In this document: positions 4,425 through 40,952 of the stretch, piece after piece
Layout: every line of letters begins with the position of its first letter
Position numbering within the stretch: the first letter of the stretch is position 1
Origin: Candidatus Iainarchaeum sp.
GTDB taxonomy: Archaea > B1Sed10-29 > WALL01 > JAGHAM01
Direction of reading: 5' to 3'
DNA length: 64,000 nucleotides
NCBI GenBank assembly: GCA_021161465.1
Contig: JAGHAM010000023.1
Span: 8,895-72,894 of the forward strand
Position numbers and translations under genes: made by a program
The notes under the pieces: generated by a model
Told to the model about the DNA's origin: nothing
Seen by the model: only the letters and a program-made list of their open reading frames with translations
The model's database searches: none

Positions 4425-7400
4425 TCAAGGTGTTTCGCGCTTCTTCTTTTTAGAGTAAACGCGGGCAAGGAATATCCCGCCAACTAGAGCCAGTGCGTAA
4501 ATCACAACTGTCCAGTCTGCCGGCCTTATCGGAACCTTTATTCCACCAGTGCCATTTAGATTCGGGTAGTTCGTTAATCCAGTGTCAACTGCACTTGGCT
4601 GCAACAGTGGCGGCTCTGTCCTTCCAGTGATTGGATTGAAACCAACTTTGCTGAAATCGTTGTTTAGCTGTATTGGTTGGCCATTGACAAAAACGTAATT
4701 ATTTGTATTTGGGTCATACTTGATGGCCCCACCCGTGCCCCTAATCCAGTCAACTATCCTTGGCTCTGTGAGCTGTTTGCCATTCCCGTCATGTATGTGA
4801 ATCTCAGTGGCGCCATTCGGCAAAGTCTTCAAGCATACCTCTCTAAGTAGATTCGCCTGTATGTGTTCCTTGCCCTCCTCATAAATTTTTATGCAGCCAG
4901 TATCCTCATCAATCTCTATCTGGCTTCCGTCGTAGGTCTCTCTCTTGCCATCGTACCATAGGTCCATCTTGGTCCTGTTATCTTTTCCAGTGTAGAACCT
5001 GAATCCTGCCGTTTCATTGGCATCGATTTTGCCGTTCCCATTAAGGTCTTTGGATGCGTCCACCCTGGTTATTATGCCAAGCTTGTCTCCTCCAGGTATC
5101 CTCGTGTTGGAACCATTGATGCCAATCAGTCTACCATACTCATCATTAACCTCCAGTGGCGCGCCCGTGTCAGAAACCAATGGCTGGCCCTTGGTAGCCC
5201 TCAGCCAGTCCATCGCAGTCATTGGCGGCTTGAAGTACTTTGGAACTATGTATATCCTATCTCCCTTCTTGATTATCACGCCACCCTCGAAAACTGCCGA
5301 CTTGAATGCAAAACTCTCGTTGTTGAACTTGACATTACCCATCCCAGTCACGGTGAGTTTCTCTGCGCTGTATTTGAACGAACCATCTACGTAATCCATC
5401 TCCCAGCGGTAATGCCCATTGTAGTCCATATTGGGATATATGGCACCCTTGTCCGTCTCTATGTCCCTCAGTGGGCCCATGCTTCTTGCAAGCTCATCGA
5501 AGTGCTCTCCGGAGAATTTAGCTATCACCATCGGGTTAAAGCTAACTACCTTTCCGCTTGGGTCCGATATGAATATCGGGCAGTCCGTGGTTTCATTCAT
5601 GTTAACAACCACAGCGGTATTTGGTATCACCATTGCAGGTAAGGTTTCATCCATCCACCTGAATGGCACAAGGTCATCGGAAACTATCGTCCTGTTACCA
5701 ACTATTAGATTCCTATTGTTTATTGTAACACATAGCGAATCGTTAACATCATTGCCTTCCATCGGGCAAAGGTGGATTGGCAGGTTGCTCGTGAGCCAGT
5801 CTATCTTGGCATCCTTAAGGTGCACGTAATAAATGCGCTTAAATGCTACCCTGCCAGTAGCATTCTCCATCTCCGAGTGGATATTCATCTGCATCTGCGC
5901 AGGCTTCAACATGCTGTCATTCTTATCTTTGCTGAAGCCTTCGAGGAAGTCGTTAAGTGGCAGATTCTCAAGCCCTGGCAAACCTTTCAACTGCTTGGAC
6001 TGCTCCTCCTCAGCCTTAAGCACTGAAGGGTCTTCATACTGTGAACCACCAACAACCATAAAGGACCTCTCACTGCAGGTAAGCAGGTCCTGCATACACT
6101 CTGAAGTAACTTCCATCTTGCCTTTTATCTTTCCGGGTCCTGCTAGCACTACATAGTCAACAAGACCCAATCCTATGTTAAGAGGAGTTAAAACCATTGA
6201 GTTCTGTGTGATAGATTGGATAATCCCGCTTGTCCCGAGCCAGATACTCATCATACCTATCTTGGCTTCGCAACTGGCTTCCACAGCCTCGCATGGAGGT
6301 CTCTTCACGCAATCAAGACCGCCACCAGTGTAATTGGTCTGCGAATAGCATTTCTCAAGGTCCTTCATAGATGTCAATTTTGTCGTCAAGAATGTCTTGG
6401 TTCCACCAGAAATGGCTTTCCCTGCCAAACCAAGGATTAAAGGTGCAATGGCATACTTGGTAACAGGAATTGCAGGCCACAAATAGACTATAGAAGAAAC
6501 GCCAATTAAGCTGGTTTGTGTACCCCAGTCACGAAGCTTTTCTGACATCGACCAACTGAACGGGAAAACGTTCTTGACCTCACCAGGATTACCAAGGATA
6601 TGTTGATATACATCAATATCTGAGGTCCTCATGCCCAAAGCTGTCGTGGCTTTCCCATTAGCAATATCCATTGATGCTGGGTCCTCAACCATGACCATCA
6701 CCTGGTTCTCCCAGTCGCGCAACCGCATCAAGTAACCGTTGCTAGTTGGTTCTATCTTGGTAATTCCCTTGGGCTTTGCCCTCTGGACTTCTATTATACC
6801 TGGGTAATGCTCATACATTATGCCACCGAACAACAAGTTCTGCCCAAGCTCACTGTATTTTGTTGCAACAACAGAATTCAACCCAGAAGAAACCAAGAAA
6901 TCCCTGAGAGTTTTACCAACTATATATCCACCAAAACCGGAACCATAAAAAGCACTTATGCTCTTAGGCACACCTATTAGGATTATATAAGATTTTGGTG
7001 TCAGCAATGCCCCAGTTTCACTGGGGTCCCAATGAAAACTCAATCCTGGAGCAGTAAGTGTAAGATACCCCTGCTTTTCGAATAGGAGTCCTGTCAGGTG
7101 CAAACCATAAGCTATCAGTGTGATTGGCCTAGCAATGAAATAAAGTCCTTGCACAAAAGCAAACAGGGACTTCTGTGGGAGCCTTAAGGCACGTATCACA
7201 AGAGGATTAGTAACTTTAGTGCTCTCAGTACCAGACGATAATATTCTTCCCTTCCTACCAATCCAACTAGCACCAAAAAATTCTCTTTCTTTAGTGAACC
7301 ATCGGGTATATCTCGGTAAGTTATCAACAGGCTTGGACTGGTAACCTGTTCTTACCATCCTGAAGATTTCATTCGTTGGCTCCTTCTTCATAGTTGATAG

Positions 7401-8981
7401 CTCAGACAAGGCTGTCCTAAAACTAACTGTATCTTCAGCGGACGCCGCTCTATGAGCTGCCTTGAGAAGTTTCTCTTCATCTCTTAAAGCATCATAATAA
7501 CTTGAGATGGCTCTTAAATCTTGGGGATCCATGATTTCTGCCACTTTTCCTTCCTTAATTAGCCCTACCTTTTTGCATTTACCGAAAAGCTCATACGATC
7601 TTGTATGCTTCATTAAGTCATATGTGTTATGTACCTCCAGTTTACTCAACACATCAGTGCCAGTGATTGAAAAACTCCCTGATGGCAGGATTTCATAGGA
7701 CTTTATGACCTTATCCACTGCATCATCTGTGAACCCAAACCCATGTAGCACACTCTTAGCTGACTGCATATCCTTTCCTTCCAGAGCCATGGTCAGCTTA
7801 TTCGTAAACTCAGTTTCTTTAACGAGGTCCCCCTCACCTGTCATATCATTTATGACTTTAGCCAGCTTGTTTGAAAATATATCATCAGCATCATCGGTGT
7901 GCCTGATAAGGTCATCTAATTTATTCAAAACAGATGACCGTTTAAGTTCCTTTGATCTAAGAAGCGCCTTCACCTCATCATCCATATTGTCAAGATGCTT
8001 CTGAAGGGTGATTATATCCGTATCTGAGTCCAAAAATAGCTTCCTAGCATTCTCATTAGCCCTTGCAGTTTGTTTTAGAAACAAAGAGTCTCTTTTGAAT
8101 ATCTTTGAAACTGCAGGTTTTAGAAGGCTCCCGAAGGCATAAGCCATGAACACAAACTGCGTCGCACCATCAAACCAGGCGAGAGACTTCATTCTAGTGG
8201 TGAAATACATATATGTTCTTGGAATCACAAAAACCGAACCACCAGCAGGGAAAACTGCCATAGTTGTGGTCCACTTGCTTGCTTTTAGCCTTGATGGATT
8301 GAGAGAAACATAACCCCATGCACCTGCATCTGAGTGCAAGGATAGACTGTTTATTGCTGTAATCCAATTGCTACCAACGGTTTCAGCAGTTTTGTTAATA
8401 AACCCTGTTGTATACCCACCGGGCTTTATGTTGAAGTCATCTGTCTTCTCACCGTTCCTCTTGGTGCAAATGCCCTCACTGGTTTCATTAATCGGCAACT
8501 CGGGGCATATGGCAAGGTCCTCACCCATCTCACCACCATACTCAACCCGGCCATCAATGCTTGTGCCTATGAGCCATTCATTGTTTGACCTCATTCTATC
8601 ATTCAAAACTGGCGAGTAGTAAACAATGCCATCGGGTCCCATGAAATACAAATTGTATTTTTCCAGACGTTTCTGGGACTCAGTTTTTTGAGTGTTATTT
8701 AAGCCAAATTTCTCAGCAGCTTGCTGCTCGCGGTAGCGCTCTGCGCTGGTTGCAACATCCTGCGTAACTATGCCCTGGATGGCAACGGCCTCATCTCTAT
8801 CAAGGTTTATAACCTCCAACCCTGACAATGCACACATCGTTGTTGTGGCGGGGAGTTCACTATTGCTATCCCCTTCGCCAGCTGTATTGTTCTCCTGTGC
8901 CATGACTGCAATCGGCCAGAAGGAAGAAGCTAACAAGATAAAAACAAAAATTAAGGCACCAGTCCAGCGCGGGGAATTCAT
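4425..8981 (-). CDS. very large secreted surface protein with signal peptide and C-terminal TM anchor plus polybasic tail
   Basis: ORF 4425..9059 begins at TTG. The first ATG (8981) gives MNSPRWTGALIFVFILLASSFWPIAVMAQEN, a signal peptide. An A/T box (TTTTATATATT) sits about 20 nt upstream on the minus strand. The C-terminus (PADWTVVIYALALVGGIFLARVYSKKKKRETP) is a TM helix plus a basic tail. Many N-x-S/T sequons. Confidence 0.7.
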   Translation of the reverse strand: MNSPRWTGALIFVFILLASSFWPIAVMAQENNTAGEGDSNSELPATTTMCALSGLEVINLDRDEAVAIQGIVTQDVATSAERYREQQAAEKFGLNNTQKTESQKRLEKYNLYFMGPDGIVYYSPVLNDRMRSNNEWLIGTSIDGRVEYGGEMGEDLAICPELPINETSEGICTKRNGEKTDDFNIKPGGYTTGFINKTAETVGSNWITAINSLSLHSDAGAWGYVSLNPSRLKASKWTTTMAVFPAGGSVFVIPRTYMYFTTRMKSLAWFDGATQFVFMAYAFGSLLKPAVSKIFKRDSLFLKQTARANENARKLFLDSDTDIITLQKHLDNMDDEVKALLRSKELKRSSVLNKLDDLIRHTDDADDIFSNKLAKVINDMTGEGDLVKETEFTNKLTMALEGKDMQSAKSVLHGFGFTDDAVDKVIKSYEILPSGSFSITGTDVLSKLEVHNTYDLMKHTRSYELFGKCKKVGLIKEGKVAEIMDPQDLRAISSYYDALRDEEKLLKAAHRAASAEDTVSFRTALSELSTMKKEPTNEIFRMVRTGYQSKPVDNLPRYTRWFTKEREFFGASWIGRKGRILSSGTESTKVTNPLVIRALRLPQKSLFAFVQGLYFIARPITLIAYGLHLTGLLFEKQGYLTLTAPGLSFHWDPSETGALLTPKSYIILIGVPKSISAFYGSGFGGYIVGKTLRDFLVSSGLNSVVATKYSELGQNLLFGGIMYEHYPGIIEVQRAKPKGITKIEPTSNGYLMRLRDWENQVMVMVEDPASMDIANGKATTALGMRTSDIDVYQHILGNPGEVKNVFPFSWSMSEKLRDWGTQTSLIGVSSIVYLWPAIPVTKYAIAPLILGLAGKAISGGTKTFLTTKLTSMKDLEKCYSQTNYTGGGLDCVKRPPCEAVEASCEAKIGMMSIWLGTSGIIQSITQNSMVLTPLNIGLGLVDYVVLAGPGKIKGKMEVTSECMQDLLTCSERSFMVVGGSQYEDPSVLKAEEEQSKQLKGLPGLENLPLNDFLEGFSKDKNDSMLKPAQMQMNIHSEMENATGRVAFKRIYYVHLKDAKIDWLTSNLPIHLCPMEGNDVNDSLCVTINNRNLIVGNRTIVSDDLVPFRWMDETLPAMVIPNTAVVVNMNETTDCPIFISDPSGKVVSFNPMVIAKFSGEHFDELARSMGPLRDIETDKGAIYPNMDYNGHYRWEMDYVDGSFKYSAEKLTVTGMGNVKFNNESFAFKSAVFEGGVIIKKGDRIYIVPKYFKPPMTAMDWLRATKGQPLVSDTGAPLEVNDEYGRLIGINGSNTRIPGGDKLGIITRVDASKDLNGNGKIDANETAGFRFYTGKDNRTKMDLWYDGKRETYDGSQIEIDEDTGCIKIYEEGKEHIQANLLREVCLKTLPNGATEIHIHDGNGKQLTEPRIVDWIRGTGGAIKYDPNTNNYVFVNGQPIQLNNDFSKVGFNPITGRTEPPLLQPSAVDTGLTNYPNLNGTGGIKVPIRPADWTVVIYALALVGGIFLARVYSKKKKRETP

Positions 8982-9033
8982 GCTTAGATATACTAACAAA
9001 GAATATATAAAACTAAGCGTATTTGCATGGAAC

Positions 9034-9612
9034 TCATCTTCCCAATAAACCGCGTTCAACTAACTTTTCATGAATAGAGGACACTCCAACATACCAGAAC
9101 CAATAGAAGCCAACCAGCACAACCAGCAGAGTCAGCCTGAAAAACAGCGAGTGCAGGAAAACCATGACTGGAGCTCCAAACCATACGCCAGATGCTAAGG
9201 TCAGGGCAATCCTAATAGGGTTGATTAAAAGCACGAACAAGAAACCAGCAATAGCGCCTACAAACCGGTTTCTCCAGCTCCTGTCCTCGGTTGCCAGTAT
9301 AGCTCCAATCAAAATTGCCAGCTCTAAATCACCAACGCAGAGTGGTAGGATCTCCACAGGTAAAGCGAAAACTCCTGTGAGCGTTGGTGGGTTGGTGCAA
9401 AATGCAGTAGTTGATACACCAAACAAAATCAAAACCCAACTTGTTAAAACAGCAGTAACCCACTCAAATTCGTGCATGAACTGCGAAACTATGAAGTAGC
9501 AAGTCAAACCAAAAACGGATAGAAGAACTAAAAAACGCGCGCCCTTCAGAAGCTCCTGCTTGTTGAAAAGTTTAATGGAAGCTTTCTTAGTACGAGGCGA
9601 ATTCGACACCAT
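9034..9612 (-). CDS. small polytopic membrane protein, candidate exosortase/archaeosortase-like
   Basis: 192 aa, about 6 TM helices. Cys92 lies inside a TM helix (EILPLCVGDLELAIL), followed by conserved-looking Arg residues (R111/R114/R116, R134, R159). The Cys-Arg spacing resembles the exosortase/archaeosortase family. Lies immediately upstream of the large protein with a tripartite C-terminus. Confidence 0.3.
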   Translation of the reverse strand: MVSNSPRTKKASIKLFNKQELLKGARFLVLLSVFGLTCYFIVSQFMHEFEWVTAVLTSWVLILFGVSTTAFCTNPPTLTGVFALPVEILPLCVGDLELAILIGAILATEDRSWRNRFVGAIAGFLFVLLINPIRIALTLASGVWFGAPVMVFLHSLFFRLTLLVVLVGFYWFWYVGVSSIHEKLVERGLLGR

Positions 9613-9644: not shown

Positions 9645-11870
9645 ATGCGTGCATGGGTACCTATTGCAATTCTTTTGCTTATCGCTGCAGGTAGCGTTCT
9701 GGTTCTCAACGAAGTTTTTAGTCCAAATCCAACCGGGCTTGCTGGGCTTTACCTTGGAGGCGACACTCACCAAGGGGAAGTAAACATAACCGCCAGAGTG
9801 ATCAAAGATACAAGTGAACCCCTAATCAATGCAAGAGTTGATGGGGATAATATAATAATCACAGTATGTGACCCAGAACTTCCAGATGGTTTTCCAGGTG
9901 TTGGAATTGGACCAAACCCGGATATAACGGTATACATAGATGGCAATAAGATAGAAAACTTAGTGCTTGGTGAAGATGAACAAGAGTACATCATATATGA
10001 TTTTGTTGAATATCTCTCCACTATGAATCAACATAGCTTGATGGTCACGGTTTCAGATTCACTTGGAAATGAAAGAAGCATAACCGGTTCAATAAAAGAA
10101 AAATCGGGATACAGGAAACATACATTTTATGAGAGCTCAGGAAGCATATACGACTCATTAATGACGACGAATGAAGAACTCATTATTAGGACACATAAAA
10201 AACTAAAAGCTGATAAGATTGCGCTTTGTGTTGGTAGATCATATCTCCATATCCCCGTTCTCTCTTGTGATGATAAGAGTTACGTCAGAGCATACGTGGA
10301 TAAAGGTAATAACGAATGGATTAGAGTAGACTCTCCATTCAGTAGATTATGTTGCTGTCCAGATCTCAAGTGCGGATGCGCATTCGACCCTGGGACTTAT
10401 TTTGGATGGGTCTATCCTAAATGCAACACCTTTGATTATGCTGGCAATGTAACAGGATTTAAGGCATCTGTGAAAACTGGAATATTCCAATCAGACCCAG
10501 GTATCTGGTATTTTAAGGCTGTGGTCCTCTCTAAAGGATATGAAATCACAGGATTTGACAAAGATCTTTCAACCTGTGGAGGCCATTTTAAAGGACTTTT
10601 AGAATGCAAAGAAAAAAATGAAGGCGATTCATGCTCTGATGGGAGGGGTATCTGCTGCAATGGAGAATGTATTACTCCAGACTGCTCATCAGACAGTGAC
10701 TGCGGAACCAGTGATGAATGTACAACTTATGAATGTATGAACCCCGGAACGTGTGAAGCAAAATGTGAAAAGATTGTTGAGGATGATTGTGAAAACTGTG
10801 CCAAATCAGGGGAAGACTGTTCTAATGATATGCCATGTTGCATCTCGTCTGGGTTAACCTGTTGTGATAGCGGTCCAAATGCTGGGAAGTGTATGACCGA
10901 TTGTGGTGGAACTACTGGAACCCACACTTGCTGGAAGTGCGATGGAACCACTGCAAAAAGTATCTCTTGCTCAGCTAGTGATTCTTGTGGAACAGGTGAT
11001 TGCAGTGGTTATTCTCTCAGTTCAAGACCTACATGTGGAACTGACGAGCCTACATGTGAAATAGTAACCAGCGGAAATCCAGATGATGATATAGGTCTAT
11101 GGCTTGAAGACTGGCACTTTGCCAAATATTCAGAGGCAACTGCTGATAAGACAAGGGGGGAGTTCCAGGTTGTAGCATCCGCACCTTCTGGTAAAACCTT
11201 AGATAGAATCGCTTGCACAAGGGAGGGTGGGTTAGCAGATTTACTCCCCATAACTAAATCTGTTTCAGGACAGACAGCAACAGCAAATTTCAATGTGTGG
11301 GAAGTTGTTGGGGATGACTTCAGTGGTGAGGATAATATAGTCTGTCAGGTGTATACCTCAGATGATAGTCGGGGTATCTGCACCTCTCCACAAAAGGTGA
11401 AATTCACCCAATTTGACGATTGTAAACTGAATTATGCTATACCTGACCAGAGTTGTGTTGTTGAGATTTCAAAAGATATATCTGATATTGACTCCTCTCT
11501 ATCGGAAATAGAATTGAAGAGGTTCCATGCTCAGATCAAATCCTGCAGTTCTCATGAGGAGTATAACTGCCATGAGAGATTTTATTTAGGGTATTCGGGC
11601 TCTGAAACTAAATATTGCGATGGAGAATACGCAACACACATTAGTATGGGACTTTCGATATGTGATTGGTATCACAAGTACGGGCCAGACCACTACGGTT
11701 TCAAACCTATGCGGGTAGATTCATTTAAATGGTACAATAGTTGCCAGGTGTATACCTATGGACATGATTGGGTTGATCTTTATTTGAACTTAGATGGTTG
11801 CCAAGATTATGACGGATGGTCGGATGAAAGCAAATGTGACTTCTATAAGGCAAACGATTGTGCGACCTAG
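9645..11870 (+). CDS. secreted cysteine-rich protein (hypothetical)
   Basis: 741 aa. Signal-anchor N-terminus (MRAWVPIAILLLIAAGSVLVLNEVF). A central block is extremely Cys-rich (CSDGRGICCNGECITPDCSSDSDCGTSDECTTYECMNPGTCEAKCEKIVEDDCENC...). A TTTTTATAC box sits about 20 nt upstream of the ATG. Confidence 0.6.
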   Translation: MRAWVPIAILLLIAAGSVLVLNEVFSPNPTGLAGLYLGGDTHQGEVNITARVIKDTSEPLINARVDGDNIIITVCDPELPDGFPGVGIGPNPDITVYIDGNKIENLVLGEDEQEYIIYDFVEYLSTMNQHSLMVTVSDSLGNERSITGSIKEKSGYRKHTFYESSGSIYDSLMTTNEELIIRTHKKLKADKIALCVGRSYLHIPVLSCDDKSYVRAYVDKGNNEWIRVDSPFSRLCCCPDLKCGCAFDPGTYFGWVYPKCNTFDYAGNVTGFKASVKTGIFQSDPGIWYFKAVVLSKGYEITGFDKDLSTCGGHFKGLLECKEKNEGDSCSDGRGICCNGECITPDCSSDSDCGTSDECTTYECMNPGTCEAKCEKIVEDDCENCAKSGEDCSNDMPCCISSGLTCCDSGPNAGKCMTDCGGTTGTHTCWKCDGTTAKSISCSASDSCGTGDCSGYSLSSRPTCGTDEPTCEIVTSGNPDDDIGLWLEDWHFAKYSEATADKTRGEFQVVASAPSGKTLDRIACTREGGLADLLPITKSVSGQTATANFNVWEVVGDDFSGEDNIVCQVYTSDDSRGICTSPQKVKFTQFDDCKLNYAIPDQSCVVEISKDISDIDSSLSEIELKRFHAQIKSCSSHEEYNCHERFYLGYSGSETKYCDGEYATHISMGLSICDWYHKYGPDHYGFKPMRVDSFKWYNSCQVYTYGHDWVDLYLNLDGCQDYDGWSDESKCDFYKANDCAT

Positions 11871-11914: not shown

Positions 11915-14200
11915 ATGGCTAGTGGTAAGGTTAAAGTTGTAACCAAGGGCGGAAAGCGCTACCTGACTATTGATTGCAGCGGCTCGCCTTACGGGCCAAG
12001 TATTGCTGATTATCCCCAGAGAATGGCCCAGGTCATTGAGGCTCTCACTGTAAACGACGTTGATGGAATCGTCCTAGCTGATGTTTACGAGCGCGTCTAT
12101 GACGAGAGGCAAACGCGCATGTTGAAGGAAATCGCGCGACTGGTTGTGAAGTTCAAGAAAGCTGGTGTCTGGGCACCTTCGATGCTTGGTGGGAATGCCT
12201 GCTCCAGGTTCATATCTAAAAGAAAGGGCCTTATGGTTGATATTGCAAGCAATCTGCTGCGCACTGACCCGATAAGGGCTTACATAAAGTGCCTGCAAGC
12301 CATAGATATGGAAAAAGCAAAACTTGAGATAATCCAGCCACCTTACAAGAAGTGCACCCAGAAGTACATGGAGACTCTTGAATTCGTCAGGGCCAACCTT
12401 GAAGCCACCGAGCTGATACAAAAGCTCAGAAATTATATAAAGAAGCTCAAAAGCATACCGCCAGGAAGAGGGTTTTACAGAAGCATACTCGAAGCACAGC
12501 TGAAGCCATCTTTCATAGGCTCAAGGCTTATATTTGACCTGCCGGAGGAGATAGAGCTCCTGGACCAGTATGCAGTAGGGGACACCAAAGTCAGCATCTA
12601 CAAGCACCCCGAGAGGGTGGAGGCTTTATACATACTGGACCCGCCCGAATACTCACTAACCCCTGAACAATATTTCCTTATGTCCAAAACCAAGGAGATA
12701 GTCAGTGGGTATCACCCAGAAGGCCTGGAATTCACAGACCTTGCAACCAACAAAGGCTACTTCAGAAAGATTTATGAAACAACTATAGCAGACCTAGCAA
12801 ATGAAAACAACATAACTGCAACCCCTGAAGAAATCGCAGAACTGGCAAGAATAGTTGTAAGATACACAATTGGCTTTGGAATGATGGGTGTTTTGCTCTC
12901 AGACGAGAAACTAACTGATGTTTACATGGATGCCCCATTAGGGTACAGACCTGTGTATGTAGTACACTCCGATCACGGGCTGTGTGAAACCAATATAATC
13001 TTCTCAGAAGAGGAAGCAGAAGGTATTATATCCCGCTTCAGGTCGATGAGTGGGAGGCCATTTGACGAAGCACACCCAATCATGGACTTCGACCTGGCTG
13101 AATACCACGCCAGAACTGCAACCATAGGGAGGCCACTTTCACCTGATGGTATTGGGTTCGCCCTGAGGATACACAAGTCTACCCCATGGACGCTCCCACA
13201 GTTCATAGACGTTAAAATGCTTACGCCAGAAGTGGCAGGGCTGCTTTCCTTCCTGATTGACTCACAAGCCTCAACACTTGTGGTCGGTAGCAGGGGCGCT
13301 GGCAAAACTTCAATGCTGATGGCCCTCATGCTGGAAATCCTGCGTTCGCAAAGAATCATAACTATAGAGGATACGTTAGAGCTGCCGGTTGACCACATGA
13401 GAAGTATAGGGTTTAAGGTATGCAGACTTAAAACAAGGTCAGCAATATCTGTTGGCCAGGTCACGGCAGAGGTCAGCCCAGAGGATGCACTCAGAACAGC
13501 ACTCCGTCTTGGTGAGTCAGTGTTGATAGTTGGCGAAGTTAGAAGTAAGGAAGCCTTAGTGCTTTACGAAGCCATGCGCGTTGGCGCGATTGGAAACGTC
13601 GTCATGGGCACCATCCACGGAGAGAACGCTTACTCTGTTTGGGATAGGGTTGTAAATGACCTTGGGGTACCAAACACATCATTCAAGGCAACAGATATGT
13701 GTGTCACATGCGCGCCCATCAGGTTCAAAGGTTCACTAAAACGGGATAGAAGGCTAATTGAGGTCACAGAGATAGGTAAAGATTGGTATGAAGACCCAAA
13801 GAAAGAAGGCGGGCTAATCGACCTGGTAACCTACGATGCTGGCACTGACACGCATAAGATACATAAGGACAACATACTTAATAACTCGCATTTCTTTAAG
13901 CGGACCGTCAAACTAAGAGGCCTTGATATGGAAGAGATATGGAACGACATAGTGTACAGAGGGAAGGTAAAGGCTACATTGGTTGATTTCAAGAACAAGT
14001 ACAACCTCCCCGAGCTGCTTGAGTCTGAAAACACAGTGGAAGCAAATGATATGTATCTGCTTATGCAGGAGAGGAGCAGGCAGGAGGTTGGCGCTGTTGA
14101 ATACGCAAAGGTCTTTGACAAGTGGAAGAAATGGGTTGGGGAAACCATGGTGAAAGGCTTGCTGGCAAGGAGGAAGAGCAGTGAGGAAGCAAAAGGATAA
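11915..14200 (+). CDS. type IV pilus/archaellum-type secretion ATPase (FlaI/TadA/VirB11 superfamily) with a long N-terminal extension
   Basis: Walker A VVGSRGAGKTSMLMAL, Asp box IITIEDTLEL, Walker B/His box GEVRSKEALVLYEAMRVGAIGNVVMGTIHGEN. At 761 aa it is roughly 200 aa longer than typical FlaI. A TATAAATA box sits about 25 nt upstream. Confidence 0.85.
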   Translation: MASGKVKVVTKGGKRYLTIDCSGSPYGPSIADYPQRMAQVIEALTVNDVDGIVLADVYERVYDERQTRMLKEIARLVVKFKKAGVWAPSMLGGNACSRFISKRKGLMVDIASNLLRTDPIRAYIKCLQAIDMEKAKLEIIQPPYKKCTQKYMETLEFVRANLEATELIQKLRNYIKKLKSIPPGRGFYRSILEAQLKPSFIGSRLIFDLPEEIELLDQYAVGDTKVSIYKHPERVEALYILDPPEYSLTPEQYFLMSKTKEIVSGYHPEGLEFTDLATNKGYFRKIYETTIADLANENNITATPEEIAELARIVVRYTIGFGMMGVLLSDEKLTDVYMDAPLGYRPVYVVHSDHGLCETNIIFSEEEAEGIISRFRSMSGRPFDEAHPIMDFDLAEYHARTATIGRPLSPDGIGFALRIHKSTPWTLPQFIDVKMLTPEVAGLLSFLIDSQASTLVVGSRGAGKTSMLMALMLEILRSQRIITIEDTLELPVDHMRSIGFKVCRLKTRSAISVGQVTAEVSPEDALRTALRLGESVLIVGEVRSKEALVLYEAMRVGAIGNVVMGTIHGENAYSVWDRVVNDLGVPNTSFKATDMCVTCAPIRFKGSLKRDRRLIEVTEIGKDWYEDPKKEGGLIDLVTYDAGTDTHKIHKDNILNNSHFFKRTVKLRGLDMEEIWNDIVYRGKVKATLVDFKNKYNLPELLESENTVEANDMYLLMQERSRQEVGAVEYAKVFDKWKKWVGETMVKGLLARRKSSEEAKG

Positions 14201-16271
14201 GTTCCTGGATGCCATGTACAGCGATGGCGAGGAGCTGGCAGCCGAGAAACCAAAGGAACCGCTCTACATTAAGTTCTGCAAGTACTCATACAAATACTTT
14301 GGGAAGAACGCTAAAAAAGAGCTTACAGAAAAATACAAAGTTGCACTTGCATTCCTGGACTGGGACATAGAGCCACAAGAACTTAACTCCGCACCACTAT
14401 TTGCAATGACCATTGGCATCATGCTTTCTTTTTTATGGGCACTGCTAAATTATGTGTTTTACAATTTCTTTAGGCCTATAGAACTTGGCGGGGCAACCCT
14501 GATAGGATACGCGCCTGAACTTGGTTTACCACTAATGATTTACTTGCTCCCATTTGCAGGAGCGCTTGGGCTGGGATACTACATACAGGCTTACCCCTTG
14601 AAAGCTGCTGAGAAGGAAAAGATAAAGTCCCTCAGATACATACCGGAGATAGTGAACTACATTGTGATGTCCATGAAGGTCTCACCGAATCTGGAGAGAG
14701 CTATCCGGTTTGCTGCCGAGCATGGGCATGGCAGGATTGCGAAAGATTTCAGAAAGCTGCACTATGATATACAAATAGGCAAATACAAAACCGTGGAAGA
14801 AGCTTTGGACTACCTGGCGTGGAAGTGGGGAGAGTATTCAGAAGAATTCAAGCATGCTCTAATGCTCATCCGCTCATCTGTGATGGAAATTGATGAGGGC
14901 AAGAGGAATAACTTATTGGATAAGGCTGTTGAGGATACACTAGCTGGAGTCAAAGACAAGATGGATATGTACTCACGAGCTATGCACCAGCCATCGATAT
15001 ACCTCTACTATTTTGGGGTGCTCTTGCCTCTCCTGCTGGTAATAATCATCCCAGTTGGGTCAATGATGGCAGCAGACACTATGGGCTTCCTTGCAACCCC
15101 TGCTGCCATGATTTTGATGTATAACATAGCGATACCCGCAGTGTCCCTACTGCTTGCGAAATCGATACTTGAGAAAAAGCCCCCCACCCGACCAGTGCCG
15201 AAGATTCCTGATAACCTGCCTGGCTTACCAAAAAAGGGCTGGTTTAGTATAGGCAGTTACCAGCTTCCAATAGGTCTTATAAGCCTTGGTATACTGGCTT
15301 CGCTTGTCATAGCTGGCTTCGCGCTTGAGCCAGTCCTAAACCCAAAGCCGCCTGCGTACATGACTGCTGGAAGAGATGTTGAACACCTGCCAATAGTGGA
15401 GTACGCCGGAATTGCACTTGGCTTTGTCTGGGCAGCCTCATTTTACATCTGGGCAAGCAACAAGGATAAGAGGAAAGCCCAGCTGGAGCTGATTAGGATG
15501 GAAGACGAGTTCCAGGACACCCTCTACGTTTTAGCCTCCCGACTTGGTGAGGGAAAACCAATGGAAGAAGCCTTAAAGCACTCGGCTGAGTTCCTGCCAA
15601 ACTCGCCAACAACTAAGAAGATATTCATACCGACACTTCAGAACGTAACTGTGATGGGAATGACCTTAAAGATGGCCCTTTTTGACAAGGCCTATGGCTC
15701 GCTGAAATATATTCCATCGGATTTTATCAGAGGGACCATGAGAATAGTGGTTGAATCGCTGACTCTTGGTGTACAGACAGCAGCGCGTTCACTGGTTTCA
15801 CTTTCGCTCCAGTTGCAGGACTCGCAAAAGGTGGAAAGGTCATTAAGGGCCTTGCTTGAAGATATCACAAGCATGATGAGCATTATGAGCACTTTGATTG
15901 CACCTGTAGTGCTTGGGATTACCATAGCCTTGCAGAAAGTTATTTACAGCGCGCTTGGTAGTGCTGCAGGGAACAGCGCGTTAAAGAATATAAACACGGC
16001 GGGCATACCAGGCGTGGGTATGGTCTCACCAATGTTGAACATGAACATGGGGGCAAAACTCCCAGCCATAGACCAAACAATGCTCCTGGCAATAATAACA
16101 ATATACATGATTGAGATAGTCCTAGTCCTTATCTACTTCGCATCCAGCGTCACTGAGGGTGACAACAAGCTGGCTTTCAAGATAAACGCAAGCATTGCAT
16201 TGCCAATATCACTAACAATATTCTTTGCAATAGCCTTCTTCGCCACCAAACTAATTCCAGCAGGGATCTGA
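14181..16271 (+). CDS. FlaJ/TadC-like polytopic membrane platform protein of the type IV pilus system
   Basis: 696 aa. Alternating cytoplasmic domains and TM blocks. GTG start preceded by AAGGAGGAAG. The start overlaps the end of the ATPase gene by 20 nt (translational coupling). Its position directly after the ATPase is the canonical arrangement. Confidence 0.7.
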   Translation: MRKQKDKFLDAMYSDGEELAAEKPKEPLYIKFCKYSYKYFGKNAKKELTEKYKVALAFLDWDIEPQELNSAPLFAMTIGIMLSFLWALLNYVFYNFFRPIELGGATLIGYAPELGLPLMIYLLPFAGALGLGYYIQAYPLKAAEKEKIKSLRYIPEIVNYIVMSMKVSPNLERAIRFAAEHGHGRIAKDFRKLHYDIQIGKYKTVEEALDYLAWKWGEYSEEFKHALMLIRSSVMEIDEGKRNNLLDKAVEDTLAGVKDKMDMYSRAMHQPSIYLYYFGVLLPLLLVIIIPVGSMMAADTMGFLATPAAMILMYNIAIPAVSLLLAKSILEKKPPTRPVPKIPDNLPGLPKKGWFSIGSYQLPIGLISLGILASLVIAGFALEPVLNPKPPAYMTAGRDVEHLPIVEYAGIALGFVWAASFYIWASNKDKRKAQLELIRMEDEFQDTLYVLASRLGEGKPMEEALKHSAEFLPNSPTTKKIFIPTLQNVTVMGMTLKMALFDKAYGSLKYIPSDFIRGTMRIVVESLTLGVQTAARSLVSLSLQLQDSQKVERSLRALLEDITSMMSIMSTLIAPVVLGITIALQKVIYSALGSAAGNSALKNINTAGIPGVGMVSPMLNMNMGAKLPAIDQTMLLAIITIYMIEIVLVLIYFASSVTEGDNKLAFKINASIALPISLTIFFAIAFFATKLIPAGI

Positions 16272-16757
16272 ATGCAAAAGGGGCAGTACTACGCAGTGAT
16301 GAAACTACTCCAGGCTGCCGTGTTCGCTGCGGTGCTGATGCTAGTTGCTTGGGGCATAATCAGCTATATCGAAAGCTACATGGCAGGCACTGATGTCCGA
16401 AGTGTCTCCGTTGAAGTTCTTAAGAGTGCCTATGTGTCAAGGGATGCAAACCAGTCATTTACTCGAGAGGCCAAGCTTATGGGGCAAGGCTTCAGTAATG
16501 AATCCCTGAGGAATTCAGCAGGCATACCTAAAGGGACCATAATAAGAATTTTCTGTAACGAAAGCTTCTGTGAAAATCCATGCCATTACTATAGCGATAA
16601 GTCCCACTGGAACAACCATTGTGGCGACCAAGTAACACTAAAGAAAGGCGGGAAGATAAAAGTATGTGCCTCATGCAAAACATATGGAACAACAGTTAAA
16701 ACAGTTAAGTGCGGGCTCTTCCTAGATGCAGATACTTGCAACATTTACATGCCCTGA
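16272..16757 (+). CDS. pilin-like protein with class III signal peptide
   Basis: N-terminus MQKGQYYAVMKLLQAAVFAAVLMLVAWGII has a KG|Q prepilin-peptidase-type cleavage context followed by a hydrophobic helix. Cys-rich C-terminal domain. ATG directly abuts the platform gene stop. Confidence 0.55.
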   Translation: MQKGQYYAVMKLLQAAVFAAVLMLVAWGIISYIESYMAGTDVRSVSVEVLKSAYVSRDANQSFTREAKLMGQGFSNESLRNSAGIPKGTIIRIFCNESFCENPCHYYSDKSHWNNHCGDQVTLKKGGKIKVCASCKTYGTTVKTVKCGLFLDADTCNIYMP

Positions 16758-16782
16758 TTGACTCGCGACTAGAACAGTAAAC

Positions 16783-16791
16783 TATTTAAAT
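16783..16791 (+). promoter_or_regulatory. TATA-box-like element (TATTTAAAT) upstream of pilin gene 16823
   Basis: About 31 nt upstream of the ATG. The same box is duplicated at 17498..17506 upstream of the paralogous pilin 17540. Confidence 0.4.
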
Positions 16792-16822
16792 ACCAATAAT
16801 GTAGTTTTGAGTAGGTGATTTC

Positions 16823-17296
16823 ATGCTAAATGAGAGAGGTCAAGCGTTTGATGCGTTTAAGCTGCTGATAGCTGCAGTGGTTGCTGGTGCAATACTTGTT
16901 ATAATATTAGGTATGCTTCAGGGTTTCATAATACCTGTTGGACAGCCTATGAGTGTTATGACTCAGGGCATATCAACTACCTCAAAAGCCGCTGGCTCTG
17001 GAACAGTTTCTCCACAAGCAGTTAAGTTTGTAAAGGGAGATATACTTTCAACTGATGGCGTAGCCGACCAGGCTGGCGTAAACAAAAATAGAGTCTGCTT
17101 TTGCAATAGCACAACAATAGATGGTGCTAAAGCCTGCCCAGCAGGATATGTATTTGATAATGGTACATACTTCACAGTCCTTGGAAAATGTGGAGGTACC
17201 ACTGGTATGAGCATAGAAGCATTAGAGGACATTAATGGAAAGATAAGGGTATACAACAAGGAAGGGACTTTTTACATAGGTTTCAAACCAAGTTAG
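16823..17296 (+). CDS. type IV pilin-like protein (class III signal peptide), paralog A1
   Basis: MLNERGQAFDAFKLLIAAVVAGAILVIILGML has an RG|Q cleavage motif plus a hydrophobic stretch. GGTGA SD-like motif upstream, and an upstream TATTTAAAT box. Confidence 0.7.
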   Translation: MLNERGQAFDAFKLLIAAVVAGAILVIILGMLQGFIIPVGQPMSVMTQGISTTSKAAGSGTVSPQAVKFVKGDILSTDGVADQAGVNKNRVCFCNSTTIDGAKACPAGYVFDNGTYFTVLGKCGGTTGMSIEALEDINGKIRVYNKEGTFYIGFKPS

Positions 17297-17313
17297 GTTT
17301 AGAAGGTAAATAG

Positions 17314-17442
17314 ATGAACACCAAGGGAGATGTGAACTGGACACCAATATACCTGCTGATACTGGCAGCAATAGCCTTAATCCTGATAGTAAGCGTTATA
17401 AAGCCAATGTTCCAAGCGGCTGCTGGAAACATAAGCTTCTAA
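17314..17442 (+). CDS. 42-aa pilin-like mini-ORF (MNTKGDVNWTPIYLLILAAIALILIVSVIKPMFQAAAGNISF)
   Basis: Not in the supplied ORF track (under 60 aa). Has a KG motif followed by a single hydrophobic helix. Sits between two pilin genes. Confidence 0.3.
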   Translation: MNTKGDVNWTPIYLLILAAIALILIVSVIKPMFQAAAGNISF

Positions 17443-17539
17443 GGTACATGGAGCGTTGCAACCTGCGCCCAACTGCAAGTGGTTGGTAAAAGTAAAGTAT
17501 TTAAATGAAAACATTGTTATTTGCTCTAGAGGAGTTAGT

Positions 17540-17998
17540 ATGTTAAACGAGAGAGGTCAGGCGTTTGATGCGTTTAAGCTACTGATAGCTGCAGTGGTTG
17601 CAGCAGCTATACTTGCTGTTATTTATGCTATAATCATCCAAGTCCAGCCACCATTTCAACAAGCCGCACAAACAATAACAAAAGGTATCTCATCTGAGAA
17701 TATTGCTGGTGCTGGCTCATATTATGGAGATGGAAAAGTTAAGTTCAATAAAGGTAGGGTGCTATCTTCAAGTGGTCTCGCTGGAGCAGTCGGTATAAAT
17801 GAGAAGAATGTTTGTTTTTGCACTTCCACCAATCCGCCAGAGTGCCCAAGTGACTCTATATTCACGGAACCTGATTTTACAGTAACAGGAACATGTGGAA
17901 ATGGACAAACACTAAAAGCAAACGAAGAAGTATATGGTAATGTGTGGATATACAGAAACAATGACAACAGGTACATGATTGGTTTCCAGAAAAGTTGA
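17540..17998 (+). CDS. type IV pilin-like protein (class III signal peptide), paralog A2
   Basis: The ATG at 17540 gives MLNERGQAFDAFKLLIAAVVAAAIL..., whose first about 25 residues (and about 90% of their nucleotides) match the 16823 gene. GGAG SD upstream and a TATTTAAAT box about 33 nt upstream. The ORF-track start at 17456 is probably too long. Confidence 0.7.
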   Translation: MLNERGQAFDAFKLLIAAVVAAAILAVIYAIIIQVQPPFQQAAQTITKGISSENIAGAGSYYGDGKVKFNKGRVLSSSGLAGAVGINEKNVCFCTSTNPPECPSDSIFTEPDFTVTGTCGNGQTLKANEEVYGNVWIYRNNDNRYMIGFQKS

Positions 17999-18037
17999 TG
18001 ATAAACATTTATAGCCTAGTTGTTCGTTATTTTGAGT

Positions 18038-18592: not shown

Positions 18593-18715
18593 AGATTTAA
18601 CGACATACTGCTTTCTCACGTGACTAAACTTGGCCTCACCGGGTGACCCGAACAGGTTTGGATATGACTTCAAAATTTCAAAACTTTTATAACCTAGTTC
18701 CCCGTTATTTCTGTG

Positions 18716-19267: not shown

Positions 19268-19275
19268 GTGGATAT

Positions 19276-19950: not shown

Positions 19951-19959
19951 GGTAGAGAT

Positions 19960-39878: not shown

Positions 39879-39879
39879 A

Positions 39880-40517: not shown

Positions 40518-40573
40518 CAAACCATCAACATTTTTGCAGAAGATTTAAATAATTGAACTCCGATATTTTAATG

Positions 40574-40948: not shown

Positions 40949-40952
40949 TGAC

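What the first reader, a model, noticed from the sequence alone, without database searches (positions are those of the whole stretch)
4425..9612. Candidate exosortase/archaeosortase-like protein next to a 1518-aa secreted protein with a tripartite C-terminus
The 192-aa, six-TM protein (9034-9612) has an intramembrane Cys (LPLCVGDLEL) followed by Arg residues at +19 to +24, +42 and +67. This spacing is reminiscent of exosortase/archaeosortase catalytic Cys/Arg. The adjacent huge secreted protein ends in a motif region, then a TM helix, then a KKKKR tail (PADWTVVIYALALVGGIFLARVYSKKKKRETP). This is the three-part architecture of sortase-type C-terminal sorting signals, but with no known PGF/PEF/PEP motif. 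A second protein (41758-42411) ends similarly (ETWQWVAIALFVLVLVWMYLKRRK). This may be a novel sorting signal and sortase pair.
Basis: inference. Interest (0 to 1): 0.6.

Follow-up and report, generated by a model that had tools for sequence, protein, structure and literature searches.

The report
Mini-archaeosortase in a DPANN pilus cluster
The small membrane protein is a true, already annotated member of the archaeosortase family of protein-anchoring enzymes. Its conserved genomic home is a type IV pilus-like surface-appendage gene cluster of tiny DPANN archaea, and the giant protein next to it is a plausible but unproven substrate.

Summary
ORF 9034-9612 (-) passes the exosortase/archaeosortase signature model (37.7 bits, cutoff 23) and keeps Cys92, Asn131-x-x-Arg134 and His154. 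NCBI already names it accordingly. It fits no named subfamily and belongs to an uncurated clade of 160-220-aa "mini" archaeosortases (163 clusters at E<=1e-10), found in Diapherotrites and Micrarchaeota.

The 1518-aa neighbour (G1) is a type I secreted protein. All 11 orthologs end in a variable linker, a [VIL]-P-x-[R]-[P/G] motif, a TM helix and a basic tail. G1 and the sortase share a cluster in all six loci where both regions could be seen.

Their adjacency here comes from a window-specific inversion. In 10 other loci the sortase is the first gene of an operon with a pilin-like "KGF" protein and a 2100-2900-aa adhesin-like giant, usually divergent from a pilus ATPase operon. One contig fuses sortase and KGF protein.

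The second protein (41758-42411) shares only the generic TM plus basic tail, not the motif.

Best reading: a dedicated sortase built into a DPANN pilus-like adhesion machine, with G1 as the likeliest substrate (about 0.45). This is a new variant of a known kind.

The parts
9034..9612 (-). Mini-archaeosortase, 192 aa. Catalytic candidates are Cys92, Asn131-Pro-Ile-Arg134 and His154. Also conserved: Glu97, Arg116 and Arg159.
   Evidence: TIGR04178 37.7 bits against a cutoff of 23. In 68 clade members C92, N131 and R134 are 68/68 and H154 is 67/68. AlphaFold2 pLDDT 92.9. NCBI name.
4425..8981 (-). G1: 1518-aa type I secreted giant with a Sec signal peptide, an ectodomain of about 1460 aa, a flexible linker and a C-terminal anchor. 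Candidate sortase substrate.
   Evidence: A family-wide hydropathy profile shows only the N-terminal signal peptide and the C-terminal TM helix as conserved hydrophobic peaks.
4428..4535 (-). Three-part C-terminal region of G1: VPIRP motif, TM helix (WTVVIYALALVGGIFLA), and basic tail RVYSKKKKRETP.
   Evidence: In the alignment of 11 orthologs, [VIL]-P-[ITSL] sits at a fixed distance of 9-13 residues from the conserved TM Tyr (Phe in L021). The Pro is invariant and the linker before it is hypervariable.
9645..11870 (+). 741-aa secreted or N-terminally anchored protein of unknown function. This slot between sortase and ATPase is variable among relatives.
   Evidence: Relatives have 744, 578, 495 or 480 aa proteins here, or nothing.
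11915..14200 (+). Type IV filament assembly ATPase (T2SSE/FlaI/TadA-like), 761 aa.
   Evidence: PF00437 6.4e-21. Sub-threshold NCBIfam hits to FlaI and TadA. Orthologs of 60-77% identity in every related cluster.
14181..16271 (+). Polytopic platform-like protein, 696 aa with about 8 TM segments. Overlaps the ATPase gene.
   Evidence: Conserved next to the ATPase in all loci, with weak BLAST similarity (E = 3e-8) to a T2SSF-annotated gene of L008. No direct Pfam or NCBIfam hit.
16272..21029 (+). Array of about 8 small (157-224 aa) pilin-like genes with class III-type N-termini, for example MLNERGQAFDAFKLLIAAVVA.
   Evidence: N-termini. Orthologs in every related cluster. No Pfam or NCBIfam hits.
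21050..21490 (+). Conserved 146-aa protein with four TM segments. It marks the end of the inverted block.
   Evidence: No family hit above threshold.
21524..23590 (+). 'KGF' protein, 688 aa, with N-terminus MHRGFSVFTPMVGVIVITITILL (pilin-like signal anchor). In other genomes it is the sortase's immediate downstream, translationally coupled partner.
   Evidence: Read-through fusion with the sortase in P0204/L017.
23636..31669 (+). G2a: 2677-aa N-terminally anchored giant with Ig-like adhesin-type domains. It is the third gene of the canonical sortase operon.
   Evidence: CarboxypepD_reg 4.3e-14, SdrD_B and SpaA. Conserved N-terminal motif ending AGIPSLPL plus a TM helix. Synteny.
31745..38404 (+). 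G2b: 2219-aa paralog of G2a.
39636..41749 (+). Run of six small membrane proteins (80-144 aa), partly paralogous. An 81-aa homolog sits at the same relative place in L005.
41758..42411 (+). 217-aa Cys-rich type I protein with a C-terminal TM helix and KRRK tail. A possible second substrate, but it has no shared motif.

Best explanation
ORF 9034-9612 encodes a catalytically intact, minimal (about 170-190 aa) archaeosortase. It belongs to an uncurated clade found in DPANN archaea and is a built-in component of a large type IV pilus-like surface-appendage/adhesion gene cluster.

Proposed mechanism:
1. G1 is exported by Sec and its signal peptide is removed.
2. G1 is then held in the membrane by its C-terminal helix, with the basic tail inside the cell.
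3. The sortase's Cys92/Arg134/His154 site lies in the outer-leaflet half of the membrane. It cuts at or near the conserved [VIL]-P-x-R-P motif just outside that helix.
4. The enzyme passes the ectodomain to a new anchor. By analogy with ArtA this would be a membrane lipid.
5. The pilin-like KGF protein, encoded immediately downstream and translationally coupled in other genomes, acts as an accessory subunit that couples the enzyme to the pilus-like machine. This is analogous in position to EpsI, which is encoded next to exosortase EpsH or fused to it.

Shown: family membership, conserved residues, cluster membership, the operon with the KGF protein and G2, and the conserved G1 C-terminus.

Inferred: active-site orientation, G1 as substrate, cleavage site, nature of the new anchor, and the role of the KGF protein.

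Sub-confidences:
- Genuine archaeosortase-family enzyme: about 0.95.
- Integral part of the pilus-like cluster: about 0.9.
- G1 is its substrate: about 0.45.
For: Family membership:
- TIGR04178 scores 37.7 bits against a cutoff of 23, E = 1.9e-9.
- 66 of 68 clade members hit the same model.
- C92, N131 and R134 are invariant and H154 is 67/68.
- The spacing C to R of +42 matches ArtA C173/R214, which are experimentally critical (PMC9263693).
- The model is confident: pLDDT 92.9, pTM 0.82.

Orientation:
- K+R minus D+E across 68 sequences is +2.7 for the N-terminus, +1.9 for loop 108-116 and +3.0 for the C-terminus, so these are inside. It is -1.4 for loop 64-89 and -0.3 for loop 144-149, so these are outside. 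This puts C92, R134 and H154 toward the outer face, as listed for ArtA.

Cluster:
- The ATPase, platform, pilin array, 146-aa protein, G1, KGF protein and G2 are conserved across loci L005, L008/L013, L014, L009/L015 and L021.

G1 as target:
- G1 has a type I topology.
- All 11 orthologs keep linker, [VIL]P motif, TM helix (Tyr; Phe in L021) and basic tail.
- The roughly 75 residues before the terminal helix are modelled as unstructured.
- Among all ORFs of the fetched loci, only G1, the window's 217-aa protein and the L012 495-aa protein have a signal peptide plus a C-terminal TM helix and basic tail.
- Sortase and G1 are in the same cluster in 6 of 6 loci where both regions are visible.
- Dedicated enzyme/target pairs recognised by gene neighbourhood are an accepted class (10.1101/2023.06.07.544157).

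KGF protein as partner:
- It is immediately downstream of the sortase, with a 4-bp overlap to a 50-bp gap, in 10 loci.
- There is a read-through fusion in L017.
- The EpsH/EpsI precedent is described in PMC1569441.
Against: - The sortase's tightest and most widely conserved linkage is to the KGF protein and G2, not to G1.
- In L022 and L017 the sortase-KGF module occurs with no protein carrying a C-terminal signal within 8-10 kb.
- A C-terminal TM helix plus a basic tail is also the form of an ordinary permanent membrane anchor. The basic tail is weak in several orthologs (RKT, IKE, HNKGKEE).
- The motif matches no curated sorting-signal model.
- No second, unrelated protein was found to share the motif.
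- Co-occurrence of sortase and G1 is confounded, because every gene of the cluster co-occurs.
- A genome-wide census was not possible.
- The N-terminal half of the sortase has an unresolved topology parity problem.
Confidence: 0.5

Rival explanations
1. The sortase works on or with its own operon partners, the pilin-like KGF protein and the G2 adhesin. For example, it could trim or covalently join them during assembly of the appendage. Under this reading G1's C-terminal helix is simply a permanent membrane anchor.
For: - The operon sortase -> KGF -> G2 occurs in 10 loci with 0-50 bp spacing or 4-bp overlaps.
- The operon persists even away from the ATPase cluster, in L022.
- There is a read-through fusion in L017.
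- ArtA can process a three-part signal that is not C-terminal (PMC6098224; PMC9263693).
Against: - Neither the KGF protein nor G2 has the motif, TM helix and basic-cluster arrangement in the orientation that exosortase-type enzymes use. Their single TM helix is N-terminal, runs N-in, and has no basic cluster after it.
- The KG/F prepilin-type site lies on the cytoplasmic face, whereas the catalytic residues map to the outer half of the membrane.
- The EpsI precedent shows that a downstream or fused partner need not be a substrate.
Confidence: 0.27
2. The sortase is a general, one-to-many sorting enzyme. Its real substrates are encoded elsewhere in the genome and carry a signature not represented in this window. 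Its place in the pilus cluster would then reflect co-regulation of surface biogenesis.
For: - Most characterised exosortase and archaeosortase systems are one-to-many, with 1 to 52 ArtA targets per genome (PMC6098224).
- Only 64 kb of this genome and about +/-10 kb around each related locus could be examined.
- The 217-aa protein and the L012 495-aa protein show that further type I proteins with TM plus basic tails exist near the cluster.
Against: - DPANN genomes are about 1 Mb, for example the 1.17-Mb contig.
- The sortase gene position is fixed inside this cluster across relatives of 35-56% identity, which is typical of dedicated systems.
Confidence: 0.15
3. The protein is a degenerate or non-catalytic relic, or a chance resemblance, and the G1 C-terminus is unrelated to it.
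For: - There is no Pfam PF09721 hit for the window protein.
- All named subfamily models score far below their cutoffs.
Against: - The signature model is passed at E = 1.9e-9.
- Cys, Asn-x-x-Arg and His are invariant across 68 diverged members, which argues for selection on catalysis.
- Several orthologs do carry weak PF09721 hits.
Confidence: 0.03

Closest known systems
Archaeosortase A (ArtA) with PGF-CTERM substrates, Haloferax volcanii
   Same: - Same superfamily signature (TIGR04178).
- Conserved Cys and Arg at nearly the same spacing: C173/R214 in ArtA, C92/R134 here.
- Active site toward the outside of the membrane.
- The substrate type would be a Sec-exported type I surface protein with a motif, TM helix and basic tail.
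   Different: - About 190 aa, much smaller than ArtA (whose critical residues already run to position 253). It matches ArtA's own NCBIfam model (TIGR04125) only weakly, in 2 of 68 clade members at E >= 1e-7.
- There is no PGF motif. The candidate motif [VIL]-P-x-R-P sits 2-4 residues before the helix rather than abutting it.
- It looks dedicated to one or a few targets.
- It is embedded in a pilus-like cluster, and no PssA/PssD-type genes were seen nearby.
Archaeosortase B (NCBIfam TIGR04144 'archaeo_VPXXXP') and its VPXXXP-type signal
   Same: The enzyme family is the same. 23 of 68 clade members give weak hits to this model (best E = 6.8e-11). The candidate G1 motif also starts with V-P. The resemblance to VPXXXP is from the model's name and my memory, not from a test.
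   Different: Scores are far below membership level. The G1 motif is V-P-x-x-P or V-P-x-R-G, not V-P-x-x-x-P. The NCBIfam scan of the G1 tail alone found no family at all.
Pacearchaeosortase (NF033505) and heimdallarchaeosortase (NF045528), other lineage-specific small archaeosortases
   Same: They are small archaeosortase-family proteins of uncultured archaeal lineages. Pacearchaeosortase is the best-scoring named subfamily for the window protein.
   Different: The score is 22 bits against a cutoff of 80, and 14 against 130 for heimdallarchaeosortase. Only 5 of 68 clade members hit NF033505 at all, with best E = 2.7e-10. This is a separate clade.
EpsH (exosortase) with EpsI, encoded downstream or fused
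   Same: A single-pass extracytoplasmic partner is encoded immediately downstream of the sortase-family gene and is sometimes fused to its C-terminus (PMC1569441). The KGF protein follows the same pattern.
   Different: The KGF protein shows no detectable similarity to EpsI or to any other family. It has a pilin-like N-terminus and 340-740 aa. The surrounding genes are pilus-like, not exopolysaccharide genes.
Archaeal type IV filament (TFF) systems
   Same: The cluster has a T2SSE-family ATPase, an adjacent polytopic platform-like protein and an array of small proteins with class III-like N-termini. DPANN islands of this kind with unrecognisable pilins were noted before (PMC6393860).
   Different: - No prepilin peptidase gene lies in the window or in the related loci (and locus tables).
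- The cluster has three giant proteins and a sortase.
- The papers on archaeal TFF diversity that I could read do not mention any sortase.
Sortase-assembled pili of Gram-positive bacteria (analogy only)
   Same: A Cys/Arg/His transpeptidase is encoded in an operon with pilus and adhesin proteins. G2 carries SpaA/SdrD_B-type Ig-like domains.
   Different: The enzyme fold is unrelated. There is no LPXTG motif, the pilus-like machinery here is ATPase-driven, and no evidence of covalent polymerisation exists.

Membership tests
Exosortase/archaeosortase superfamily | Match to the family signature model TIGR04178 above its curated cutoff | tested here: met
   37.7 bits against a cutoff of 23, E = 1.9e-9, residues 86-173. 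66 of 68 clade relatives also match.
Exosortase/archaeosortase superfamily | Near-invariant Cys, Arg and His (proposed catalytic triad) | tested here: met
   C92 is 68/68, R134 is 68/68 (within N-x-x-R) and H154 is 67/68. The triad is defined in 10.1101/2023.06.07.544157. ArtA mutagenesis identified C173, R214 and R253.
Exosortase/archaeosortase superfamily | Polytopic membrane protein with the active site toward the extracytoplasmic face | tested here: inconclusive
   The positive-inside rule on 68 sequences places the core helices so that C92, R134 and H154 lie in the outer half. The model is helical and confident. However, the coordinates could not be inspected and the N-terminal helices have a parity problem.
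Exosortase/archaeosortase superfamily | Pfam PF09721 (Exosortase_EpsH) match | tested here: not met
   No Pfam hit for the window protein at E <= 1. Homologs P0003 and P0005 carry precomputed PF09721 hits, and orthologs in L014, L015, L021 and L022 are flagged 'weak'.
Exosortase/archaeosortase superfamily | Endoproteolytic removal of a C-terminal sorting signal | not testable with these tools
   Needs proteomics or biochemistry.
Exosortase/archaeosortase superfamily | Fold shared with other family members | not testable with these tools
   No solved structure matches: the best Foldseek E-value against PDB is 0.97 and the profile search against PDB sequences found nothing significant. The AlphaFold database libraries were not available.
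Named archaeosortase/exosortase subfamilies (ArtA-F, pacearchaeosortase, heimdallarchaeosortase, XrtH, XrtX and others) | Score at or above the subfamily model's curated cutoff | tested here: not met
   Best scores are paceosortase 22 (cutoff 80), XrtH 21.8 (86), ArtD 20.2 (125) and heimosortase 14 (130). Among 68 relatives the best E-values are only 1e-10 to 1e-17.
Sortase-type C-terminal sorting signal (generic three-part domain) | Signature motif, then a hydrophobic helix, then a basic cluster at the extreme C-terminus of a secreted protein | tested here: met
   G1 and 10 orthologs show it. The basic cluster is weak in 5 of the 11.
Sortase-type C-terminal sorting signal (generic three-part domain) | The same signal is present on several otherwise unrelated proteins, or, for dedicated systems, enzyme and target regularly co-occur in neighbouring genes | tested here: inconclusive
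   No second protein shares the motif in about 300 kb of loci. Enzyme and G1 lie in the same cluster in 6 of 6 informative loci but about 10 kb apart, and all cluster genes co-occur.
Known signal families with an NCBIfam model (e.g. PEP-CTERM, LPXTG; PGF-, PEF-, VPXXXP- and IPTL-type signals named from memory) | Match to a curated signal model | tested here: not met
   The G1 tail gave no family at E <= 10. The 217-aa tail gave only sub-cutoff LPXTG_anchor (14.3 against 15.9) and PEP_CTERM (13.5 against 16), covering the TM helix and basic part. Short models are hard to hit, so this is weak negative evidence.
Archaeal type IV filament (TFF) system | [quoted passage not shown] | tested here: inconclusive
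   ATPase is met (PF00437). The platform is supported only by position, topology and a weak BLAST link to a T2SSF gene. The pilins are recognised by N-terminal pattern only. No peptidase gene was found in the window.

The most novel reading that the evidence does not exclude
The mini-archaeosortase acts as a transpeptidase that cuts off G1's C-terminal anchor and joins G1 covalently to the pilin-like KGF protein or the filament, rather than to a lipid. That would make a hybrid between an ATPase-driven type IV filament and a sortase-built appendage, used by DPANN archaea to hold or present a giant adhesin for host contact. It would be an archaeal counterpart, of independent origin, to sortase-assembled Gram-positive pili.
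Probability: 0.08. Interest if true: 0.85.

Novelty: new variant of a known kind. Interest (0 to 1): 0.55.

Why it matters
Archaeosortases have been studied experimentally almost only in haloarchaea, where one enzyme lipid-anchors the S-layer glycoprotein and other surface proteins. This finding adds three things:

- A distinct, uncurated clade of minimal archaeosortases, with 163 sequence clusters at E <= 1e-10, in the host-dependent, ultrasmall DPANN archaea.
- A fixed placement inside a pilus-like gene cluster, together with giant adhesin-like proteins. I found no paper linking archaeosortases to type IV filament systems in the library I could search.
- A concrete, testable enzyme/target pair (sortase with G1) and a candidate new signal.

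DPANN archaea depend on physical contact with host cells and the molecules involved are largely unknown. This cluster is a reasonable candidate for part of that machinery. The roughly 170-aa enzymes are also attractive minimal models for the still unsolved structure and mechanism of the exosortase/archaeosortase fold.

Tried and rejected
1. Structure-based annotation of G1. AlphaFold2 on the last 900 aa with 10 sequences gave mean pLDDT 46.8. Foldseek against PDB gave only TM-scores <= 0.07. I rejected these as uninformative.
2. Fold comparison of the sortase. PDB has nothing and the AFDB library was unavailable.
3. Wider locus surveys. Narrower alignments returned only 2 genome loci and 3 short metagenome loci.
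4. A shared pre-TM motif between G1, the 217-aa protein and the L012 495-aa protein. Only loose resemblances exist (IP..., KPDEEE against RPEET), which is not enough to define a shared signal.
5. The idea that G1 is polytopic, which would make its last helix an unlikely sorting signal. I rejected it because the internal hydrophobic segments are not conserved as TM-like peaks across orthologs.
6. The idea that the sortase replaces the missing prepilin peptidase and cuts KG/F sites. I disfavour it because the catalytic residues map to the outer half of the membrane.
7. The L016 158-aa ORF upstream of the ATPase as a sortase. It does not align with the sortases.
8. Repeats at the inversion breakpoints. 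None were found.
9. Pfam and NCBIfam annotation of the pilin-like genes, the platform, the 741-aa and 146-aa proteins and the KGF protein. No hits above threshold.
10. The key 2012 archaeosortase paper (PMC3256604) is not held in the library. Statements about ArtB-F signals rest on model names and memory.


Full report
**1. What is in the sequence**

The finding's coordinates hold two co-directional genes on the minus strand.

ORF 9034-9612 encodes 192 aa.

ORF 4425-9059 is 1544 aa from a TTG start. From the ATG at 8981 it is 1518 aa, identical to a database protein. It begins with a Sec-type signal peptide and ends ...VPIRPADWTVVIYALALVGGIFLARVYSKKKKRETP. I call this protein G1.

ORF 41758-42411 (+) encodes a 217-aa protein with a signal peptide that ends ...WVAIALFVLVLVWMYLKRRK.

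The window comes from a Candidatus Diapherotrites (DPANN) metagenome-assembled genome. NCBI already names the 192-aa protein 'exosortase/archaeosortase family protein' and names G1 'hypothetical protein'.

**2. Is the small protein an archaeosortase?**

Yes, at superfamily level.

- It passes the curated signature model TIGR04178 (37.7 bits, cutoff 23, E = 1.9e-9).
- It falls far short of every named subfamily: pacearchaeosortase 22 against 80, XrtH 21.8 against 86, ArtD 20.2 against 125, heimdallarchaeosortase 14 against 130.
- Pfam finds nothing for it.

An exhaustive profile search of 1.84 billion representative proteins found 338 relatives at E <= 1e-3, 163 at E <= 1e-10 and 20 at E <= 1e-30. 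Almost all are 160-220 aa. Of 68 sampled relatives, 66 hit TIGR04178 and none approaches a subfamily model. Named sources are Diapherotrites and Micrarchaeota MAGs.

In those 68 sequences, Cys92, Asn131 and Arg134 are invariant. His154 is 67/68, Glu97 is 66/68 and Arg116 is 65/68. Cys, Arg and His are the proposed catalytic triad of the family (10.1101/2023.06.07.544157). In Haloferax ArtA the critical residues are C173, R214 (C+41) and R253 (PMC9263693). Here the spacing is C92 to R134 (C+42).

AlphaFold2 with 20 sequences gives a confident model (pLDDT 92.9, pTM 0.82). It has helices 18-44 and 46-63, a small sheet at 69-87, then helices 90-107, 113-145 and 147-186. No solved structure has this fold.

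Charge counts over the 68 sequences put the N-terminus, loop 108-116 and the C-terminus inside the cell. Loops 64-89 and 144-149 are outside. Cys92, Arg134 and His154 therefore all sit in the outer half of the membrane, as reported for ArtA. The number of membrane passes in the N-terminal third remains unresolved.

**3. The surroundings: one large pilus-like cluster**

The region from 9.6 kb to about 42 kb is a single plus-strand cluster. In order it contains:

- a 741-aa secreted protein;
- a 761-aa T2SSE/FlaI/TadA-type ATPase;
- an overlapping 696-aa polytopic platform-like protein;
- about eight 157-224-aa proteins with class III pilin-like N-termini, for example ERGQAFDAFKLLIAAVVA;
- a 146-aa protein with four TM segments;
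- a 688-aa protein starting MHRGFSVFTPMVGV followed by a hydrophobic helix (the 'KGF' protein);
- two giants of 2677 and 2219 aa (G2a and G2b), which are N-terminally anchored and carry CarboxypepD_reg, SdrD_B and SpaA Ig-like domains;
- six small membrane proteins;
- the 217-aa protein.

No prepilin peptidase gene is present in the window. ATPase orthologs are abundant in DPANN MAGs, with 1548 hits at E <= 1e-50. DPANN pilus-like islands full of unrecognisable 'pilins' have been noted before (PMC6393860).

**4. Comparative context**

I recovered 13 distinct related loci.

In L013/L008, L014, L015/L009, L005 and L021 the layout is as follows:

- G2 <- KGF <- sortase, then divergently an optional secreted protein -> ATPase -> platform -> pilin array -> a gene of about 147 aa -> G1, usually followed by deoxyhypusine synthase.
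- In L021 the 147-aa gene was not identified and G1 lies on the opposite strand.

L007, L012, L019, L020 and L022 also show sortase -> KGF, followed by G2 where the contig is long enough. Spacing ranges from a 4-bp overlap to 50 bp. In L022 this trio stands apart from any ATPase. In L011 the KGF gene follows the platform gene instead.

In L017 the sortase frame reads through a perfect 27-bp tandem duplication into the KGF gene, giving a 1102-aa fusion. This is a single contig.

The window's order equals the canonical order after one inversion of the block from the sortase to the 146-aa gene. That inversion is what places the sortase beside G1. No repeats mark the breakpoints.

Membership of both genes in one cluster is conserved, in 6 of 6 loci where both ends can be seen.

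**5. Is the G1 C-terminus a sorting signal?**

For:

- Family-wide hydropathy shows only two conserved hydrophobic peaks, the signal peptide and the last helix, so G1 is a type I protein.
- All ten database orthologs (36-51% identity) and the more distant L021 protein end the same way. After the conserved ...PPLLQPS comes a hypervariable Pro/Glu/Gly/Thr-rich linker of about 20 residues. Then comes [VIL]-P-[ITSL]-[R/x]-[P/G/x], seen as VPIRP, IPTRP, IPSRP, VPTIP, VPTVP, LPTRP, VPIRG, VPLHE, VPLRG and IPINK. This lies at a fixed 9-13 residues from a conserved Tyr (Phe in L021) in the helix, followed by a basic tail.
- The region before the helix is modelled as unstructured.
- The orientation (motif outside, tail inside) fits the inferred position of the catalytic residues.
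- Dedicated one-enzyme/one-target systems identified by neighbourhood are accepted in this field.

Against:

- The tail is weak in five orthologs (RKT, IKE, HNKGKEE).
- No curated signal model matches.
- No unrelated protein shares the motif. A scan of all ORFs in about 300 kb of loci found only G1 orthologs, the 217-aa protein and a 495-aa protein directly upstream of the sortase in L012 (...KPDEEELDITPHIVILAITVLTLIVFYRESKK). Those two share only the helix and the tail.
- L017 and L022 have the sortase without any such protein nearby.
- Because all cluster genes co-occur, the sortase/G1 co-occurrence does not discriminate between explanations.

**6. Most likely mechanism**

The protein is an active, minimal archaeosortase dedicated to this pilus-like adhesion cluster.

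- G1 is the only cluster protein with the right topology and a conserved pre-helix motif, so it is the most likely substrate (about 0.45).
- After Sec export, G1's C-terminal helix would be cut off at or near V-P-x-R-P by Cys92. The ectodomain would then be transferred to a new anchor, by analogy with ArtA a membrane lipid.
- The KGF protein is positioned like EpsI, which is encoded next to exosortase EpsH or fused to it and whose function is unknown (PMC1569441). It is best read as an accessory subunit tying the enzyme to the filament machinery.

Rivals:

- The enzyme acts on the KGF protein or G2 themselves (0.27). This is weakened by their opposite helix orientation and by the outer-face active site.
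- Its substrates lie elsewhere in the genome (0.15).
- It is inactive (0.03).

**7. Comparison with what is known, and novelty**

The protein is a member of the exosortase/archaeosortase superfamily but of no named subfamily. The candidate signal is not a member of any curated signal family.

The library papers on archaeal type IV filament diversity do not mention sortases. Searches combining archaeosortase with DPANN lineages or with pilins returned no paper that describes such a link.

The family assignment is already in public annotation. What appears to be new is the clade, its fixed place in a pilus-like cluster with giant adhesins, the sortase-KGF coupling, and the candidate G1 signal. 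I rate it a new variant of a known kind, with moderate interest (0.55).

**8. Limits**

- No whole-genome census was possible.
- Model coordinates could not be inspected.
- The G1 fold remains unknown.
- The 2012 archaeosortase paper was not available.

Noticed in passing
window 9034-21490 compared with L013, L014, L015 and L021: The window's gene order equals the canonical cluster order after a single inversion of the block from the sortase to the 146-aa gene. No repeats were found at the breakpoints.
   Followed up: partly
window 23636-23800 and 31745-31900; L005 12064-12543 and 12603-12800; L019 2633-2800; L020 2598-2760: The G2 giants, and a 159-aa protein in L005, share a conserved N-terminal motif of about 45 aa: 'IYxxIEDKYYxFLDxLxxKGIPVYxVVDPIExAGIPSLPL'. 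A TM helix follows directly. It may be a targeting or docking module for the pilus-like machine.
   Followed up: partly
L017 7134-10442: A 1102-aa ORF fuses the mini-sortase to the KGF protein through a perfect 27-bp x2.3 tandem duplication (7795-7855). AliA_AliB (archaeal lipoprotein lipidation) and UbiA genes flank the ATPase and the fusion gene.
   Followed up: partly
L012 4494-8411 (P0026); P0029: The pilus ATPase ortholog carries an intein with a homing endonuclease (PF14528, PF14890), making it about 1300 aa.
   Followed up: no
L009/L015 (SocA_Panacea, PIN), L016 6791-9554 (nucleotidyltransferase/HEPN, ParE/RHH), L011 7037-7541: Toxin-antitoxin or defence-type gene pairs are inserted inside or beside the pilin array in several relatives. 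The window has none.
   Followed up: no
L001 19572-20579; L008 18191-20887; L009 19184-22420 (just beyond the window's left end, next to the PAC2 gene at window 11-760): A second, separate type IV filament module lies a few kb from the cluster. It has a ferredoxin-domain T2SSE ATPase plus two T2SSF platform genes.
   Followed up: no
whole window and all related loci: No A24-type prepilin peptidase gene was seen in the window or flagged in any locus table, although each cluster has about nine genes with class III-like N-termini.
   Followed up: partly
window 40173-41318: Three adjacent small membrane proteins (114, 131 and 121 aa) are paralogs of each other, within a run of six small membrane proteins that precedes the 217-aa protein.
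   Followed up: no
window 51404-59388 and 61064-63054: There is a glycosylation gene block (PMT_2/Alg9-like and GT2 glycosyltransferases, and an LPG_synthase_TM-family membrane protein). Archaeal lipid-synthesis genes are also present: Fe-ADH, probably G1P dehydrogenase-like, and a UbiA prenyltransferase.
   Followed up: no
L016 3-119: A partial ORF at the contig start ends '...IWLFGKSFKKKVRR...'. It could be the tail of a sortase cut off by the contig end, upstream of the cluster that carries G1 ortholog P0010. This is unverified.
   Followed up: no
window 42416-42895 and 44447-44962: These ORFs have Ser/Leu/Ile-rich low-complexity translations and lie next to a HerA-like gene and a PolB gene. 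They may not be real genes.
   Followed up: no
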